IMG/VR virus record: IMGVR_UViG_2529292726_000019
DNA length: 46,731 nt
From: a virus
Lineage: Duplodnaviria; Heunggongvirae; Uroviricota; Caudoviricetes
Direction: 5' to 3' (one strand)
Of the stretch, positions 32,101 through 36,247 are shown in pieces; the stretch's first letter is position 1; the number at the start of each line of letters is the position of its first letter. Made by a program: the position numbers and the translations under genes. Under the pieces are notes generated by a model that ran no database searches, had not been told where the DNA came from, and was given only the letters and a program-made list of their open reading frames with translations.

Positions 32101-32627
32101 TAGAAGTTGTCTTTCCCGCCCGCTGTAATCAGTGAGCTTATGATTTTTGCAAAATCGTTGCGTTGGAACACGCTACCGATGTCGGAAGTGAGCAGGATGA
32201 TGTTGCCTTTGGCATATGTAGAAACCAACTGTTCGAGCGAGAGACGCGGTACAAAGTAGAACTGTTCTCGTGTGTTGGCCGCCGTCATTAGTTCGCAGAT
32301 GTCGCGATATCCTTGCTCATTTTTAATTAGAGCGGTAAACGAGTAGTTACGTCCTCGCTCTAATGATTCCATACATCTCATAGATTCTTTAGCAAGTTTA
32401 GCCCGGTGCTCGTATGTGGGATCATCAACAATGTTTAGTTTCACACCACAAATAACCGCCATGTCGTCACCAGCGGCACGTTGTAGTGGAATAACGCTCG
32501 CAATATTCATGCTATCTGCTGAAATTACAGCGGTGTAGCCAGCTTCTCTGGCAATCTTCACCGCGTTTTCTGCTTTTAGAGCCGACTCCCCAAGTGAGAA
32601 GTCAGTTCGAACCATCAGTGCCTTCAT
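29121..32627 (-). CDS. dnaE: DNA polymerase III alpha subunit (DnaE-type, family C)
   Basis: 1168 aa with [38 protein letters not shown] and DLPDADLDF catalytic motifs; conserved start region. Confidence 0.9.
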   Translation of the reverse strand: [1168 protein letters not shown]

Positions 32628-32805
32628 GTGTTTTTACCTTTCTGGTTTTTTTGATTTTGTCATTGGGGAAGCCTACGAACTTCCCATGCATCGAAATCGC
32701 AACTTCCTTTGCTGATTGGTGACAATCGGGCTTGTCTGGACACACCAGACAAGCCTTACCAGTTTCAGAAGCAGCGATAAGAGAGCCGAAACATCCTTTA
32801 CGCAC
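32602..32805 (-). CDS. small Cys-rich protein (67 aa), possible zinc ribbon
   Basis: C-x13-CLVC-x5-CH pattern; sits between the AAA+ gene and dnaE and overlaps the dnaE start by 26 nt. Confidence 0.35.
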   Translation of the reverse strand: MRKGCFGSLIAASETGKACLVCPDKPDCHQSAKEVAISMHGKFVGFPNDKIKKTRKVKTHEGTDGSN

Positions 32806-32807
32806 GA

Positions 32808-34043: not shown

Positions 34044-34138
34044 GCGTTTTTCCTTTGTTCTCTAATGAGCGTTCAACTTCTTATATAAATATACCATTAA
34101 ATATCGTAAGTGGTTACTTACCATTAAGGCTGTTTTAT

Positions 34139-36247
34139 TCACTTCAAAATGATACGAGATAGTTCAGTAACTACAGATGAACCAAGACTATCAACGCCCG
34201 TTACCAGGGCATGATTTGAGTAAAATCTCTCCGGTGCGTCAGTCATGATGCCAATTGCCATCAAATCAATGTCAGTCTGCGTTTCAATTTGCTTCGCAAC
34301 CGAACGCAAATGAGCGTCAAAACCTCTCCCAACAGCCCACGGCGCGCCATCACTCAGAACAAGCATGATCTTCCTGTCCTCCATGCGACCGGAAAATAAC
34401 GATGCAAGGCTGGCTATGCTTTCACCATCCACGTTATTAAGAAGTGGGAATGTGTAGCCTACGCACCCCATACGTGAGCGAACTTCGCGAGAATTTACCT
34501 TTTCATTCCAATTTTTGATGATAGGTAGCATTAAAGATTCAAAGCGAGAGAACTCATACTTGACAGCCTTAAGTCCTCCTGCCGCCATATGACTACCAAA
34601 TGTAGTGAAGCCGGTGATAATGTTGGGAACATTTATTCGATCAAGGGCATCGGCGATGGTATATGCACTTGCAAGAGCCAATTGTATCGTTATACCACTC
34701 ATTGAACCTGATAAATCAATCACTTGTTGAACACAGGCGTTAACGGCTTTAGATTCTTCTTTTTTACGAAACACGCGATCATCATTCATTGCTAATCTGT
34801 AGATACTAGAACCATGAATGCGCCCCCGACGCTGGCCCGGTATAAACTGAACTCTGTTTCTGCTTGCTATTGCTCGCTCCAGGTCTTTTGCCAGCGTCGA
34901 CGAAACACCTGACGAAAGATGCTTTTCAATATATTTGTCGAAGAGCTGGTTGCCTTCAGGAACGATGCGATAGCGGCTGATTGGATATCCTCCCAAATCA
35001 ATATCGGAGAATGTTTTAATAAGCCGTTTGATATGGGCTTCTGCCTGATCAATCGAGCCGATGAAGTCGTATGAGCGATTGTATGGCCTGTATTCGCTTT
35101 TCGAGCTTTCTGTTAACTCGCTTTTAATCGTTTCGGATAGAGCATCTTCTGTCATGCCTCCGACTTCATCTTCTATGCTATCCAGCTCCTCTAAAGCCTC
35201 TTCCAGACTCATTTTTGACGGAGTTGGGATATCTGAAGAGCCGTCTTCTGTCGTTTTTCTTTTTTCGTGGTCAGCGGTTAATGATTCTGACGCCGCGTTA
35301 TCAGAAGCATCAGAATCTGATACCTCTTTATCATTTTCTGTATCATCGAATATTGTTTCTGATGATTCAGAATTATCTGAATCATCGCTGTCGTTATTAT
35401 CATGTTTGTGCTTACTATGTGATTCTGATTTGATAGGTTTGTGATTATCTAACGATGAGGGTGTCTCATGATCTTCGTTGTCTTCATTGTTTTCTCCAGA
35501 GGCATCCGTCTGGTCAGCGTCTGAAGGATCGGAAGTTTTTCCCGGAGCTGACTCCTTACCTTTGCTTTCACTTTCAGTGTCTTTGAGGATCTTAGCTATG
35601 GTCGCAGCCACCTTTACACAATCCTCGGTGCAAGACATGTTACGCACGGCCACATCGATACCATGTTCTTTTAATAATGAAATTGGTTTCTCAATGACAG
35701 GCCAGTATTCATCCATGAAATCTACGAACGGTGCTTGGCCATCCCAGGCTCTTACAACCGGACAGAGAAAGAAGTTTAGAAAAAGCGCGCGCTGATCTTT
35801 GCCACAATAAGCAATAGCCTCTGAAGCCTTTGGTTTAAAGACTTTTTCGATTATAAGGCGCTGAGTTGCCATCAGATTACGTCTTGTTCCGTTAAAGACC
35901 TGCCCCATTTTTCGCTCGATGAACACGTCTTCTAAGGCATTCCATAGCGACCAGGAAGGAACGCGTCCTTTTTCTCTCATTTTGTTGGACACACGAATAT
36001 CGGTAAACAAAATGTGAGCAACCTCATGATCGAGAAATCCGCGCACAGCATTCATCAATGCCGGTGTTGCGTTATCCGGGATTGATGGGATGTTTACGAG
36101 AATTGGCTCTCCATCATCGTTATAGCGTACATAAGCGTCGTCCCCTCGTTCTGCAACAGGGATGTTTTTACCTGAAAGGAGAGCGACTACTCGTTTTACA
36201 CTGTCACGGAAGTCCTGAACCTCTTTGATGGAACGTTTTTTAGACAT
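34139..36247 (-). CDS. von Willebrand factor A domain protein, CobT-like partner of the AAA+ ATPase
   Basis: MIDAS-like VIDLSGSMSG in the C-terminal half and a ~150-aa acidic Ser/Asp/Glu-rich low-complexity insert. Confidence 0.7.
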   Translation of the reverse strand: MSKKRSIKEVQDFRDSVKRVVALLSGKNIPVAERGDDAYVRYNDDGEPILVNIPSIPDNATPALMNAVRGFLDHEVAHILFTDIRVSNKMREKGRVPSWSLWNALEDVFIERKMGQVFNGTRRNLMATQRLIIEKVFKPKASEAIAYCGKDQRALFLNFFLCPVVRAWDGQAPFVDFMDEYWPVIEKPISLLKEHGIDVAVRNMSCTEDCVKVAATIAKILKDTESESKGKESAPGKTSDPSDADQTDASGENNEDNEDHETPSSLDNHKPIKSESHSKHKHDNNDSDDSDNSESSETIFDDTENDKEVSDSDASDNAASESLTADHEKRKTTEDGSSDIPTPSKMSLEEALEELDSIEDEVGGMTEDALSETIKSELTESSKSEYRPYNRSYDFIGSIDQAEAHIKRLIKTFSDIDLGGYPISRYRIVPEGNQLFDKYIEKHLSSGVSSTLAKDLERAIASRNRVQFIPGQRRGRIHGSSIYRLAMNDDRVFRKKEESKAVNACVQQVIDLSGSMSGITIQLALASAYTIADALDRINVPNIITGFTTFGSHMAAGGLKAVKYEFSRFESLMLPIIKNWNEKVNSREVRSRMGCVGYTFPLLNNVDGESIASLASLFSGRMEDRKIMLVLSDGAPWAVGRGFDAHLRSVAKQIETQTDIDLMAIGIMTDAPERFYSNHALVTGVDSLGSSVVTELSRIILK

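What the first reader, a model, noticed from the sequence alone, without database searches (positions are those of the whole stretch)
32602..36247. CobS/CobT-like AAA+/vWA pair and small Cys-rich protein co-transcribed with dnaE
A MoxR/CobS-like AAA+ ATPase with an N-terminal CxxC element, a 702-aa vWA protein with a MIDAS-like DxSGS motif and a long acidic Ser-rich disordered insert, and a 67-aa Cys-rich protein lie immediately upstream of, and co-oriented with, the DnaE-type polymerase. AAA+/vWA pairs usually act as chaperone or metal-insertion machines. Their position suggests a role in replisome assembly or an undescribed replication-coupled function rather than cobalamin synthesis.
Basis: partly seen in the sequence, partly recalled or inferred. 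Interest (0 to 1): 0.55.

Follow-up and report, generated by a model that had tools for sequence, protein, structure and literature searches.

The report
Phage CobST-like motor beside DnaE
Two phage genes long labelled as vitamin-B12 (cobalt chelatase) genes do sit just upstream of the phage DNA polymerase, but in this E. coli phage-plasmid they most likely encode an ATP-driven protein-remodelling motor carrying a DNA-binding zinc finger and a protease motif, whose target is still unknown.

Summary
The window is an SSU5-like phage-plasmid of E. coli (96.6% identical to phage Cyrano). Read 5'->3' on the minus strand it carries a 70-aa ORF, a CobT-like gene (702 aa), a CobS-like gene (411 aa), a 67-aa 4-Cys gene and dnaE. 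The pair is homologous to cobaltochelatase CobS/CobT (best PDB hits: Brucella CobS and CobT) but scores far below NCBIfam equivalog cut-offs. The annotated phage has no CobN and no B12-dependent enzyme, and E. coli lacks the pathway. Three refinements came out. (1) The adaptor keeps an intact HExxH zincin motif that true Brucella CobT lacks. (2) The "CxxC element" is a Ros/MucR-type DNA-binding zinc finger. (3) The 67-aa protein is a truncated member of a 166-240-aa family that always sits directly upstream of dnaE. All 61 related viral dnaE loci with enough upstream sequence carry the pair. Unrelated phages with PolA or T4-type replisomes also keep cobT-cobS inside their replication modules. 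In a Cyrano lysogen the genes are at background expression. Best reading: a lytic-cycle MoxR/VWA remodeller, probably DNA-tethered, acting on a non-CobN client. Phage cobST is already known; its function is not.

The parts
36810..37196 (+). Divergent HTH repressor-like gene (128 aa), counterpart of Cyrano CYRAN_45
   Evidence: It is expressed about 10x above background in the lysogen. A divergent small HTH-like gene is conserved upstream of the unit in relatives (family 19).
36346..36558 (-). 70-aa ORF, first gene of the leftward unit (phrog_2627, unknown function)
   Evidence: Small ORFs of 62-76 aa occupy the same position in relatives.
36301..36333 (-). GC-rich hairpin between the 70-aa ORF and cobT-like; no U-tract follows it
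   Evidence: 111-nt region: -23 kcal/mol, z = -2.4. RNA drops between CYRAN_46 and CYRAN_47 in the LF82 data.
34139..36247 (-). CobT-like adaptor, 702 aa
   Evidence: Pfam CobT + CobT_C; phrog_1576; PDB Brucella CobT 9uka, E 1e-16.
35573..36247 (-). CobT N-domain (aa 1-225), zincin-like
   Evidence: Pfam CobT E 1.8e-21 on this segment. HHalign to Brucella CobT_N: probability 57%, E 1e-4. Brucella CobT_N is described as M48C-like (bioRxiv 10.64898/2026.07.21.739949).
36014..36028 (-). HEVAH (aa 74-78), HExxH zincin motif; it is followed by N103-x2-E106-D107-x3-E111 at 35915-35941
   Evidence: Conserved in 9 of 10 viral lineages. Absent from Brucella CobT.
35063..35572 (-). Acidic Ser/Thr-rich disordered linker (aa 226-395)
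   Evidence: Composition. Its length varies among homologues of 699-774 aa. An equivalent acidic linker exists in Brucella CobT.
34742..34864 (-). Pre-VWA segment (aa 462-502), at the position of the CobT 'shaft' that enters the CobS ring
   Evidence: Aligned to Brucella CobT around residues 373-413. The shaft's role is from bioRxiv 10.64898/2026.07.21.739949. The function here is inferred.
34142..34741 (-). VWA domain (aa 503-702) with MIDAS DLSGS at 34703-34717
   Evidence: Pfam CobT_C E 1e-81. All five MIDAS positions are conserved against Brucella CobT.
32808..34043 (-). CobS-like MoxR-class AAA+ ATPase, 411 aa
   Evidence: AAA_5; phrog_249; PDB Brucella CobS 9ujv, E 5e-26. AF2 pLDDT 89. 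Best fold matches are NorQ and CbbQ, TM 0.83-0.87.
33834..34001 (-). N-terminal Ros/MucR-type zinc finger (aa 15-70; C18, C21, H31, C37)
   Evidence: The motif is present in 96/113 homologues. The profile's top PDB hit is Ros 2jsp, E 4e-4. Pfam ROS_MUCR scores 28.8 bits, above the 25.4 cut-off, in homologue P0057. The segment is ordered in the AF2 model.
32811..33620 (-). AAA+ core (aa 142-411); Walker A at 33498-33521, Walker B at 33318-33335
32602..32805 (-). 67-aa 4-Cys protein (GCFGS-x13-C-x2-C-x5-C); truncated member of the phrog_3616 family that sits directly upstream of dnaE
29121..32627 (-). DnaE-type polymerase with a C-terminal family-4 UDG-like domain

Best explanation
The two large genes encode a CobST-type MoxR/VWA motor-adaptor machine that has nothing to do with B12 in this host. 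By analogy with the solved CobSTN and NorQD complexes, the proposed mechanism is as follows.

1. The 411-aa protein forms a hexameric AAA+ ring.
2. The 702-aa protein binds the ring through its N-domain and inserts its pre-VWA segment (the 'shaft') into the pore.
3. Its MIDAS-bearing VWA domain and its zincin-like N-domain grip a protein client.
4. ATP hydrolysis remodels that client, and the intact HExxH site may also cleave it.

Unlike true CobS, the motor carries a flexibly linked Ros/MucR zinc finger, so up to six DNA-binding modules would hold the ring on DNA. The genes are silent in the plasmid prophage. They are the first large genes of the leftward early/replication unit next to the repressor gene, so the machine would act at the onset of lytic DNA metabolism. 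The client would be a phage or host protein at the replication/recombination stage. It is not CobN.

Shown here: homology, conserved catalytic, MIDAS and HExxH residues, the zinc finger, synteny, and silence in lysogeny.
Inferred: hexamer and shaft geometry, DNA tethering, peptidase activity, and the nature of the client.
For: Homology and motifs.

Not a chelatase orthologue: NCBIfam CobS 86.7 bits against a 558.55 cut-off, and CobT 68.2 against 759.05.

No cobN or B12 enzyme is annotated in Cyrano, which has class Ia NrdAB. E. coli lacks the pathway (PMC6249242).

HExxH plus a downstream Glu is conserved in 9/10 viral lineages and absent in Brucella CobT.

Ros/MucR zinc finger. It is joined to the core by a linker of variable length.

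Linkage: 61/61 dnaE loci carry the pair, down to 34% DnaE identity. cobT lies directly upstream of cobS in nearly all of the 80 viral loci fetched with the CobS profile that have upstream sequence.

Replication-module placement with other polymerases:
- ICP2: primase, helicase, PolA.
- Cobavirinae.
- P-SSM4 and 63 T4-like loci, between gp46/47 and gp45/44/62.
- Stenotrophomonas phage DLP_6.

Lysogen RNA: cobT 7.8, cobS 6.7 and dnaE 10.1, against 96 for the repressor.

Mechanistic template: bioRxiv 10.64898/2026.07.21.739949.
Against: Everything about the client is guilt by association. Phage replication modules also hold nucleotide-metabolism genes, and in many relatives a sigma-like factor sits inside the same unit.

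The zinc finger is degenerate or missing in some clade members: 17 of 113 lack the motif, L007 and L009 have D in place of the second Cys, and it is absent from L008. It is also absent from T4-like and ICP2 CobS, where only weak HTH-like hits were found.

The HExxH is lost in Pseudomonas phage phiK7B1, so peptidase activity cannot be universally required.

The AF2 model of the adaptor failed (pLDDT 37.5), so the zincin fold and the shaft are not structurally tested here.

Within the DnaE clade the linkage could simply reflect shared ancestry.
Confidence: 0.45

Rival explanations
1. Host-takeover or anti-defence device. An early-expressed ATP-driven remodeller/protease strips or cleaves a host protein, such as a defence sensor or a nucleoid or repair factor. 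Its proximity to replication genes only reflects early timing.
For: It occupies the first positions of the derepressed leftward unit next to the repressor gene. It has an intact zincin motif. VWA domains are peptide-binding adaptors in conflict systems (PMC7159879, listed). There is a weak profile hit of the N-domain to the anti-CRISPR AcrIIA26 (E 5e-4).
Against: No PADLOC or anti-defence family match. The AcrIIA26 hit covers 59 residues and is borderline. The pair behaves as a core, syntenic gene set across very different hosts (cobS near one copy per myo-cyanophage genome, PMC9983427), unlike typical fast-turnover anti-defence genes.
Confidence: 0.2
2. Metal-cofactor insertion chaperone for another phage or host metalloenzyme (for example NrdB or another enzyme of dNTP synthesis). 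This would follow the usual job of MoxR/VWA pairs such as CobST, BchID, NorQD and CoxDE.
For: Family precedent (discussion section of bioRxiv 10.64898/2026.07.21.739949). The best fold matches are NorQ and CbbQ. The phage encodes NrdAB, ThyX and DHFR. The MIDAS is fully conserved.
Against: The pair is not adjacent to nrd or other metalloenzyme genes here (NrdAB lie about 18 kb away in the window). This reading does not explain the zinc finger or the conserved HExxH. The DnaE PHP domain appears to lack the HxH metal ligands.
Confidence: 0.1
3. Virion-assembly chaperone/protease, as proposed for MoxR-vWA-metallopeptidase pairs of jumbo phages and shown for the ATV tail proteins.
For: Iyer et al. 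2021 (PMC7824862) describe the same domain architecture and propose a role in virion assembly with peptidolytic processing.
Against: Here and in four other lineages the genes lie in the replication/early module. In Cyrano the structural genes occupy positions 135-26536, while cobT/cobS lie at 43137-46576. The DNA-binding finger is unexplained. In T4-like phages the pair lies between gp46/47 and gp45/44/62, not among the head or tail genes.
Confidence: 0.1
4. A dedicated DnaE maturation or replisome-assembly factor (the narrow form of the first reader's idea).
For: 100% linkage with this DnaE-UDG polymerase (61/61 loci). Gene spacing is tight, with overlap into dnaE.
Against: Homologous cobT-cobS pairs accompany PolA (ICP2, Cobavirinae) and T4-type PolB replisomes. 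The PHP metal site is degenerate. The gene immediately next to dnaE is the 4-Cys family gene, not cobS.
Confidence: 0.08
5. A genuine auxiliary cobaltochelatase. The viral CobST docks onto a host CobN to boost B12 synthesis, as in the Liu et al. 2021 hypothesis.
For: Clear homology to CobS/CobT, with a conserved MIDAS and shaft region. The hypothesis is published (PMC8651126). In cyanophages the bilin reductase gene pcyA lies between the cobT-like gene and cobS, which hints at a tetrapyrrole context there.
Against: E. coli has no CobN and no HBAD substrate (PMC6249242). Salmonella uses the anaerobic pathway (PMC6249242). Klebsiella likewise, and V. cholerae as a non-producer, are from my own knowledge, not checked here. 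Scores are far below the equivalog cut-offs. The phage RNR is class Ia. The genes are silent in lysogeny. The HExxH is retained, unlike in true CobT.
Confidence: 0.04

Closest known systems
Aerobic cobaltochelatase CobS/CobT (Brucella melitensis CobSTN; PDB 9ujv, 9uka, 21vu; bioRxiv 10.64898/2026.07.21.739949)
   Same: It is the closest solved relative by sequence for both proteins. The AAA+ catalytic residues match. The adaptor has the same three-part architecture: N-domain, acidic disordered linker, and VWA with a complete MIDAS and a pre-VWA segment at the shaft position.
   Different: No CobN is present in the phage or the host. Scores reach only 15% and 9% of the equivalog cut-offs. The N-domain keeps HExxH where Brucella CobT has none. 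The ATPase has about 140 extra N-terminal residues with a Ros/MucR zinc finger. Expression is confined to the lytic cycle.
Viral cobST gene cluster (Liu et al. 2021, PMC8651126; cyanophage cobS plus 'peptidase'; ICP2 ORF41/42, PMC3037004; PHROGs 249, 1576, 17276)
   Same: It is the same family and has the same cobT->cobS gene order. It is a member of this known set. The SSU5 and Cyrano genes were already annotated as 'porphyrin biosynthesis' or CobS/CobT.
   Different: The DnaE-linked clade adds the zinc finger and the downstream 4-Cys gene. The literature treats the pair as a B12 auxiliary metabolic gene, which cannot apply in enterobacteria.
MoxR-VWA motor-adaptor pairs NorQ/NorD and CbbQ/CbbO
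   Same: These are the best fold matches of the ATPase model (TM 0.83-0.87). They share the hexameric-motor-plus-single-VWA-adaptor logic that remodels one client protein.
   Different: Their clients (NorB, Rubisco) are absent here. Their adaptors are not reported to carry a zincin domain (my own knowledge, not checked here), and the ~255-residue NorQ/CbbQ chains matched have no counterpart of the N-terminal zinc-finger extension.
Jumbo-phage MoxR plus vWA-metallopeptidase pair (Iyer et al. 2021, PMC7824862) and ATV p618/p892
   Same: The adaptor has the same zincin + vWA architecture and is paired with a MoxR ATPase.
   Different: Those pairs were proposed to act in virion assembly. Here the genomic context is the replication/early module, and the motor carries a DNA-binding finger.
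Ros/MucR prokaryotic zinc-finger DNA-binding domain (PDB 2jsp; Pfam PF05443)
   Same: The C-x2-C-x9-H-x3-5-H/C ligand spacing and the following '..Y...FPD.P..S' segment match.
   Different: Here it is fused to an AAA+ motor rather than forming a small transcription regulator. The fourth ligand is Cys after an insertion in the enterobacterial versions. The window protein itself does not reach the Pfam threshold.
Midasin/Rea1 (functional analogy only)
   Same: An AAA_5-type ring works with a MIDAS domain to pull assembly factors off a nucleoprotein particle. Midasin's AAA domains are the next-best sequence hits (E 1e-11).
   Different: It is a single giant eukaryotic polypeptide with no peptidase. 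Membership is not claimed.

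Membership tests
Aerobic cobaltochelatase CobNST (EC 6.6.1.2) | CobS-type AAA+ with Walker A/B, sensor 1, Arg finger and sensor 2 | tested here: met
   Walker A and Walker B were located by script. The other positions were read from the alignment to Brucella CobS over aa 142-411, E 5e-26.
Aerobic cobaltochelatase CobNST (EC 6.6.1.2) | Scores at or above the NCBIfam equivalog cut-offs (TIGR01650 CobS, TIGR01651 CobT) | tested here: not met
   86.7 bits against 558.55, and 68.2 bits against 759.05.
Aerobic cobaltochelatase CobNST (EC 6.6.1.2) | CobT architecture: N-domain, disordered acidic linker, VWA with MIDAS | tested here: met
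   Pfam CobT + CobT_C; MIDAS D, S, S, N, D conserved; linker composition.
Aerobic cobaltochelatase CobNST (EC 6.6.1.2) | CobT N-domain is a catalytically dead M48C-like fold (no HExxH), as in Brucella CobT | tested here: not met
   The window has HEVAH plus E106/D107/E111. Brucella CobT_N has no HExxH.
Aerobic cobaltochelatase CobNST (EC 6.6.1.2) | A CobN catalytic subunit encoded by the element | tested here: not met
   The whole annotated Cyrano genome (96.6% identical to the window over the 8 kb compared) has no cobN or other cob gene.
Aerobic cobaltochelatase CobNST (EC 6.6.1.2) | Host supplies CobN and the substrate hydrogenobyrinic acid a,c-diamide | not testable with these tools
   Literature only: E. 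coli needed heterologous cobN/S/T and the whole pathway (PMC6249242).
Aerobic cobaltochelatase CobNST (EC 6.6.1.2) | Cobalt insertion activity | not testable with these tools
   This needs biochemistry or complementation.
MoxR-class AAA+ / VWA motor-adaptor pairs | AAA_5-type ATPase with the MoxR/CbbQ/NorQ fold | tested here: met
   Pfam AAA_5. AF2 pLDDT 89 and Foldseek top hits NorQ and CbbQ, E 1e-15.
MoxR-class AAA+ / VWA motor-adaptor pairs | Adjacent gene encoding a VWA protein with an intact MIDAS | tested here: met
   The adjacency is conserved in nearly all of the 80 viral loci fetched with the CobS profile that have upstream sequence.
MoxR-class AAA+ / VWA motor-adaptor pairs | Hexameric ring with the adaptor segment inserted in the pore | not testable with these tools
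   No complex prediction tool was available, and the monomer model of the adaptor failed (pLDDT 37.5).
Viral cobST cluster (PHROG 249 + 1576) | Both proteins match the phage families and lie in cobT->cobS order | tested here: met
   phrog_249 E 8e-105; phrog_1576 E 3e-300; gene order.
Zincin metallopeptidases | HExxH plus a downstream Glu ligand | tested here: met
   H74, E75, H78, E106/E111. E75 and E111 are invariant and H74, H78 and E106 nearly invariant in A1.
Zincin metallopeptidases | Zincin fold and peptidase activity | tested here: inconclusive
   The AF2 model was unusable. There is only weak homology to the M48C-like Brucella CobT_N and a phrog_459 'peptidase' hit. Activity was not tested.
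Ros/MucR zinc-finger domain (PF05443) | C-x2-C-x9-H-x3-5-H/C ligand pattern | tested here: met
   Window residues C18, C21, H31, C37. The pattern is present in 96/113 homologues.
Ros/MucR zinc-finger domain (PF05443) | Pfam gathering score reached | tested here: inconclusive
   The window segment gives no ROS_MUCR hit. Homologue P0057 scores 28.8 bits, above the 25.4 cut-off. P0051 scores 25.3, P0075 18.9 and P0120 15.9. The top PDB hit of the family profile is Ros, E 4e-4.
Ros/MucR zinc-finger domain (PF05443) | Zinc and DNA binding | not testable with these tools
   This needs biochemistry or ChIP.
Known anti-phage defence systems (PADLOC 2.0) | Match to a defence-system protein model | tested here: not met
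   There are no hits for the ATPase or the small ORFs. The adaptor gives only a 15-bit DrmE hit, E 0.0015.

The most novel reading that the evidence does not exclude
Viral 'CobST' is not a metabolic gene at all. It would be a previously unrecognised accessory of phage replisomes: a DNA-tethered AAA+ ring whose VWA-zincin adaptor grips and cleaves or strips proteins bound to DNA, such as host nucleoid or replisome proteins, clamps, or covalent or tight protein roadblocks. That would be functionally analogous to the Cdc48-Wss1/SPRTN protease systems of eukaryotes. It would have been recruited independently of polymerase type (DnaE, PolA, T4 PolB). The 'cobS' marker gene used in marine viromics would then be misassigned.
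Probability: 0.2. Interest if true: 0.8.

Novelty: new variant of a known kind. Interest (0 to 1): 0.5.

Why it matters
cobS and cobT are among the most widespread 'auxiliary metabolic genes' reported in tailed viruses. They are core genes in marine myo-cyanophages and occur in pelagiphages, haloviruses and vibriophages. By this scan they also sit on SSU5-like plasmids in 4.5% of complete E. coli genomes. They are routinely counted as B12 genes in viromics, yet no function has been shown.

This locus is a clean natural counter-example, because the host has no CobN and no pathway. It also lies in a genetically tractable system (E. coli/Salmonella with Cyrano, SSU5 or pHCM2).

The three features found here each give a point-mutant test: the intact HExxH, the Ros/MucR finger, and strict replication-module placement across three polymerase types. 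Together they turn 'what does viral CobST do?' into a set of direct experiments.

If the machine proves to be a replication-stage remodeller or protease, annotation of thousands of viral genomes and several ecological inferences about viral B12 metabolism would need revision.

Tried and rejected
1. AF2 of the full 702-aa adaptor with 15 homologues gave pLDDT 37.5. The alignment was too shallow (at least 66% identity), so no fold search of the zincin domain or the shaft was possible.

2. A profile of viral CobT N-domains against the PDB did not retrieve Brucella CobT_N. I recovered the Brucella sequence by querying with a remembered Pseudomonas/Sinorhizobium-type CobT N-terminus and compared it by HHalign. 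Homology is only marginal (probability 57%).

3. The AcrIIA26 hit (E 5e-4 over 59 aa) was checked against its structure paper, which reports a novel fold and no peptidase (PMC13089141). I treat it as unconfirmed and probably a motif-level resemblance.

4. The idea that the pair metallates the DnaE PHP domain was rejected. The window DnaE starts [15 protein letters not shown], and I do not see in it the canonical PHP HxH motif as I recall it from other DnaE proteins (no formal comparison made).

5. A defence-system reading was rejected by PADLOC.

6. N-termini of T4-like CobS proteins look like a winged helix (..RGxWxL). Only sub-threshold HTH hits were found (E 0.006-0.09), and the PDB profile search returned designed repeat proteins. 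This is inconclusive.

7. The consensus promoter scan found no convincing minus-strand promoter upstream of the 70-aa ORF, and fewer sites overall than in shuffled sequence. Promoter assignment is left open.

8. The cobT-cobS intergenic region has no significant structure (z = -0.19).

9. Literature searches found no experimental test of any viral CobS or CobT.

Full report
WHAT IS THERE.

The window is an SSU5-like phage-plasmid of E. coli. The 8 kb around the finding is 98.3% identical to 'Escherichia phage CMS-2020a', 96.6% to phage Cyrano (pLF82) and about 81% to Salmonella phage SSU5. The 3.6-kb finding occurs in 244 of 5,426 complete E. coli genomes, always on plasmids.

- a 70-aa ORF (36346-36558)
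- a 702-aa protein (34139-36247)
- a 411-aa protein (32808-34043)
- a 67-aa ORF (32602-32805)
- dnaE (29121-32627)

The spacing between the last four is 95 nt, then 2 nt, then a 26-nt overlap. Good Shine-Dalgarno sequences precede cobT-like, cobS-like and dnaE. The 67-aa ORF has a GTG start 2 nt after the cobS stop, which suggests translational coupling.

No terminator-like site lies on the minus strand across the unit. A divergent HTH repressor-like gene and an integrase gene lie just upstream.

FAMILY ASSIGNMENT.

The 411-aa protein has one Pfam domain, AAA_5. The 702-aa protein matches Pfam CobT (E 2.4e-27) and CobT_C (E 1e-81). Both fall in phage families (phrog_249 'porphyrin biosynthesis', phrog_1576).

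The closest solved structures by sequence are Brucella melitensis CobS (E 5e-26, aa 142-411) and CobT (E 1e-16, aa 440-697). Walker A and Walker B were located directly. The sensor-1 Asn, Arg finger and sensor-2 Arg, and all five MIDAS residues, are conserved as I read those alignments.

An AlphaFold model of the ATPase is confident (pLDDT 89). Its best fold matches are the MoxR-class motors NorQ and CbbQ (TM 0.83-0.87).

The acidic Ser-rich region (aa 226-395; 29% D+E, 26% S+T) is not an insert. It is the counterpart of the roughly 90-residue disordered acidic linker of true CobT (bioRxiv 10.64898/2026.07.21.739949). That preprint supplies the mechanistic template. A CobS hexamer acts as motor. 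One CobT acts as adaptor, with its pre-VWA 'shaft' inserted in the ring. CobN, the effector, is held between the two CobT domains.

WHY IT IS NOT A COBALT CHELATASE HERE.

- Against NCBI's equivalog models the proteins score 86.7 bits (cut-off 558.55) and 68.2 bits (cut-off 759.05).
- The fully annotated Cyrano genome has no cobN, no other cob gene and no B12-dependent enzyme. Its ribonucleotide reductase is class Ia NrdAB.
- E. coli makes no B12 de novo. An engineered strain needed about 30 foreign genes, including cobN, cobS and cobT (PMC6249242).
- In the LF82 lysogen transcriptome, cobT (7.8), cobS (6.7) and dnaE (10.1) sit at prophage background, against 96 for the repressor (PMC9928086 Table S1). 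They are therefore lytic-cycle genes, not lysogenic-conversion genes.
- The Cyrano record's names ('dimethylbenzimidazole phosphoribosyltransferase', 'cobalamin synthetase') are a name collision with the unrelated Salmonella CobT and CobS.

THREE FEATURES THAT SET THE VIRAL PROTEINS APART.

(1) An intact zincin motif. The adaptor's N-domain carries HEVAH (aa 74-78), followed by N103-x2-E106-D107-x3-E111. HExxH is present at the same position in 9 of 10 viral CobT-like proteins. These were drawn from the DnaE clade, ICP2, Cobavirinae, a T4-like cyanophage and Stenotrophomonas phage DLP_6. Only Pseudomonas phage phiK7B1 has a degenerate SEISK.

The true Brucella CobT N-domain, whose sequence I recovered, has no HExxH. 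HHalign places a gap or a non-ligand stretch there. The CobSTN authors describe that domain as M48C-peptidase-like. So the viral proteins look like the peptidase-competent version of a domain that is degenerate in the chelatase. This agrees with the 'peptidase' label in cyanophage records and with Iyer et al. 2021.

(2) A zinc finger on the motor. The pattern C-x2-C-x9-H-x3-5-[H/C] occurs in 96 of 113 full-length homologues. In the window the ligands are C18, C21, H31 and C37. A profile of the module has Ros (PDB 2jsp) as its top hit in the whole PDB (E 4e-4).

Pfam ROS_MUCR passes its gathering score in homologue P0057 (28.8 bits against 25.4) and just misses in P0051 (25.3). The window segment itself gives no ROS_MUCR hit, so its assignment rests on the motif and on alignment with these homologues.

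The segment is ordered in the AF2 model. It is joined to the AAA+ core by a low-complexity linker of very variable length. It is absent from Brucella CobS and from T4-like and ICP2 CobS.

(3) The 67-aa protein is real. Enterobacterial versions of 62-67 aa keep GCFGS..C..C.....CH despite substitutions and an ATG/GTG start change. It is the N-terminal 4-Cys module of a 166-240-aa family (phrog_3616, function unknown). That family sits directly upstream of dnaE in every relative examined.

GENOMIC ASSOCIATION.

Using a DnaE profile, 78 viral loci were fetched. All 61 with at least 2.5 kb upstream of dnaE carry a CobS-like gene there. All with enough sequence also carry CobT-like and the 4-Cys gene. 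This holds down to 34% DnaE identity.

The order is: small ORF, cobT, cobS, (sigma-70-like gene in many relatives), 4-Cys gene, dnaE..., gp32-like SSB, 5'-3' exonuclease, RecA. This order holds in Pseudomonas nickie-like and Rhizobium phages and in many metagenomic contigs.

Using a CobS profile, 80 further loci showed a CobT-like gene immediately upstream of cobS almost without exception.

In lineages with other replication machineries the pair is also embedded in the replication module:
- ICP2: cobT-cobS, then primase, helicase and PolA.
- Cobavirinae: cobS-cobT, then polymerase and primase/helicase.
- DLP_6: polymerase, UvsX and primase/helicase, then cobT-like and cobS, then ThyX.
- 63 T4-like loci: gp47/gp46 upstream. 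Downstream lie the gp45 clamp (52 loci), gp44 (39), gp62 (29) and RegA (26).

This argues for co-expression with DNA replication and recombination in general, not for a DnaE-specific role.

INTERPRETATION.

The best-supported reading is a lytic-cycle MoxR/VWA motor-adaptor machine whose effector is not CobN. In this clade it is probably tethered to DNA by the Ros/MucR fingers, and it may cleave as well as remodel its client.

The steps actually shown are homology, conserved catalytic, MIDAS and HExxH residues, the finger, the synteny and the silence in lysogeny. The ring-and-shaft geometry, DNA binding, peptidase activity and the identity of the client are inferred.

The caveats are real:
- The association is guilt by association.
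- A sigma-like gene shares the unit in many relatives.
- The finger and the HExxH are each lost in some members.
- The adaptor's AF2 model failed.

Rivals, in order of my estimate, are:
- an early host-takeover or anti-defence remodeller;
- a metal-insertion chaperone for another metalloenzyme;
- a virion-assembly chaperone (Iyer et al.);
- a DnaE-specific factor;
- a genuine CobN-hijacking chelatase (Liu et al. 2021), which is nearly excluded for this host. It may still hold in cyanophages, where pcyA lies between the two genes.

NOVELTY.

Phage cobS/cobT are well known (ICP2 2011; cyanophage core genes; Liu et al. 2021). This very pair has been annotated in SSU5 and Cyrano, so the existence of the feature is not new.

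My literature searches found no experimental test of function and no mention of three things: the retained HExxH contrasted with true CobT, the Ros/MucR finger, and the strict linkage to the replication module across polymerase types.

I therefore rate it a new variant of a known kind, of moderate interest. Its main value is as a tractable system for settling what viral 'CobST' really does.

Noticed in passing
window 29121-29640 (-), C-terminal ~160 aa of DnaE: The DnaE-type polymerase ends in a family-4 uracil-DNA-glycosylase-like domain (TIGR00758 E 3e-7; Pfam UDG in relatives). This fusion is conserved across the whole phage clade.
   Followed up: partly
window 32583-32627 (-), N-terminus of DnaE: The PHP domain starts [15 protein letters not shown]. 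I do not see the canonical HxH metal-binding motif as I recall it, so the PHP exonuclease/metal site is probably inactive. A separate epsilon-like exonuclease is annotated in Cyrano (CYRAN_77).
   Followed up: partly
window 36301-36333 (-): A GC-rich hairpin with a 10-12 bp stem and no U-tract lies between the 70-aa ORF and cobT-like (region z = -2.4). In the LF82 RNA-seq table, the 70-aa ORF (CYRAN_46) rises to log2 about 10.8 in some columns while cobT-like stays near 5.9. This suggests attenuation or processing between them. The column conditions were not checked.
   Followed up: partly
L001 (Cyrano OV696614) 15645-19084: The public record names the two genes 'cobalamin synthetase' and 'dimethylbenzimidazole phosphoribosyltransferase'. 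Those are the unrelated Salmonella CobS and CobT, so this is an annotation error caused by the gene-name collision.
   Followed up: yes
L002 9182-9856; L009 10209-10844; 33 of the dnaE loci listed: Many relatives carry a sigma-70 region-2-like gene (211-224 aa, phrog_351) between cobS and the 4-Cys gene. It is absent from the window and from the enterobacterial SSU5-likes, where the 4-Cys protein is also truncated to 62-67 aa.
   Followed up: partly
L020, L021, L157, L166, L168: In several viral contigs the CobT-like protein is split at the linker into separate zincin-domain and VWA-domain ORFs. The two halves can therefore work as separate polypeptides.
   Followed up: no
L011, L033-L095 (N-termini of T4-like CobS): T4-like CobS proteins carry a different N-terminal module of about 70 aa, ending in a conserved K.GRGKW.L-type motif that resembles a winged helix. 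Only sub-threshold HTH hits were found. If it is real, two lineages would have independently put DNA-binding modules on the motor.
   Followed up: partly
window 35915-36000 (-), CobT-like aa ~87-145: The profile of viral CobT N-domains hits the anti-CRISPR AcrIIA26 (PDB 9zq6_B) at E 5e-4 over 59 residues (shared LN.lED.FIE...Y.G motif). The significance is unclear.
   Followed up: partly
window 40116-40813 (-): The window has a cluster of four tRNA genes (Ser-tga, Thr-tgt, Tyr-gta, Asn-gtt). The closely related Cyrano record lists only Ser, Thr and Asn.
   Followed up: no
window 29020-29120 versus L001 10261-11109: Cyrano has a HicA/HicB toxin-antitoxin pair between the UvsY-like gene and dnaE. 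The window has only about 100 nt there.
   Followed up: no
L109, L110, L114, L118: In some close relatives the dnaE match spans about 4.2 kb instead of 3.5 kb, and the reading frame is interrupted near codon 790. This suggests an insertion (an intein or a mobile element) inside dnaE.
   Followed up: no
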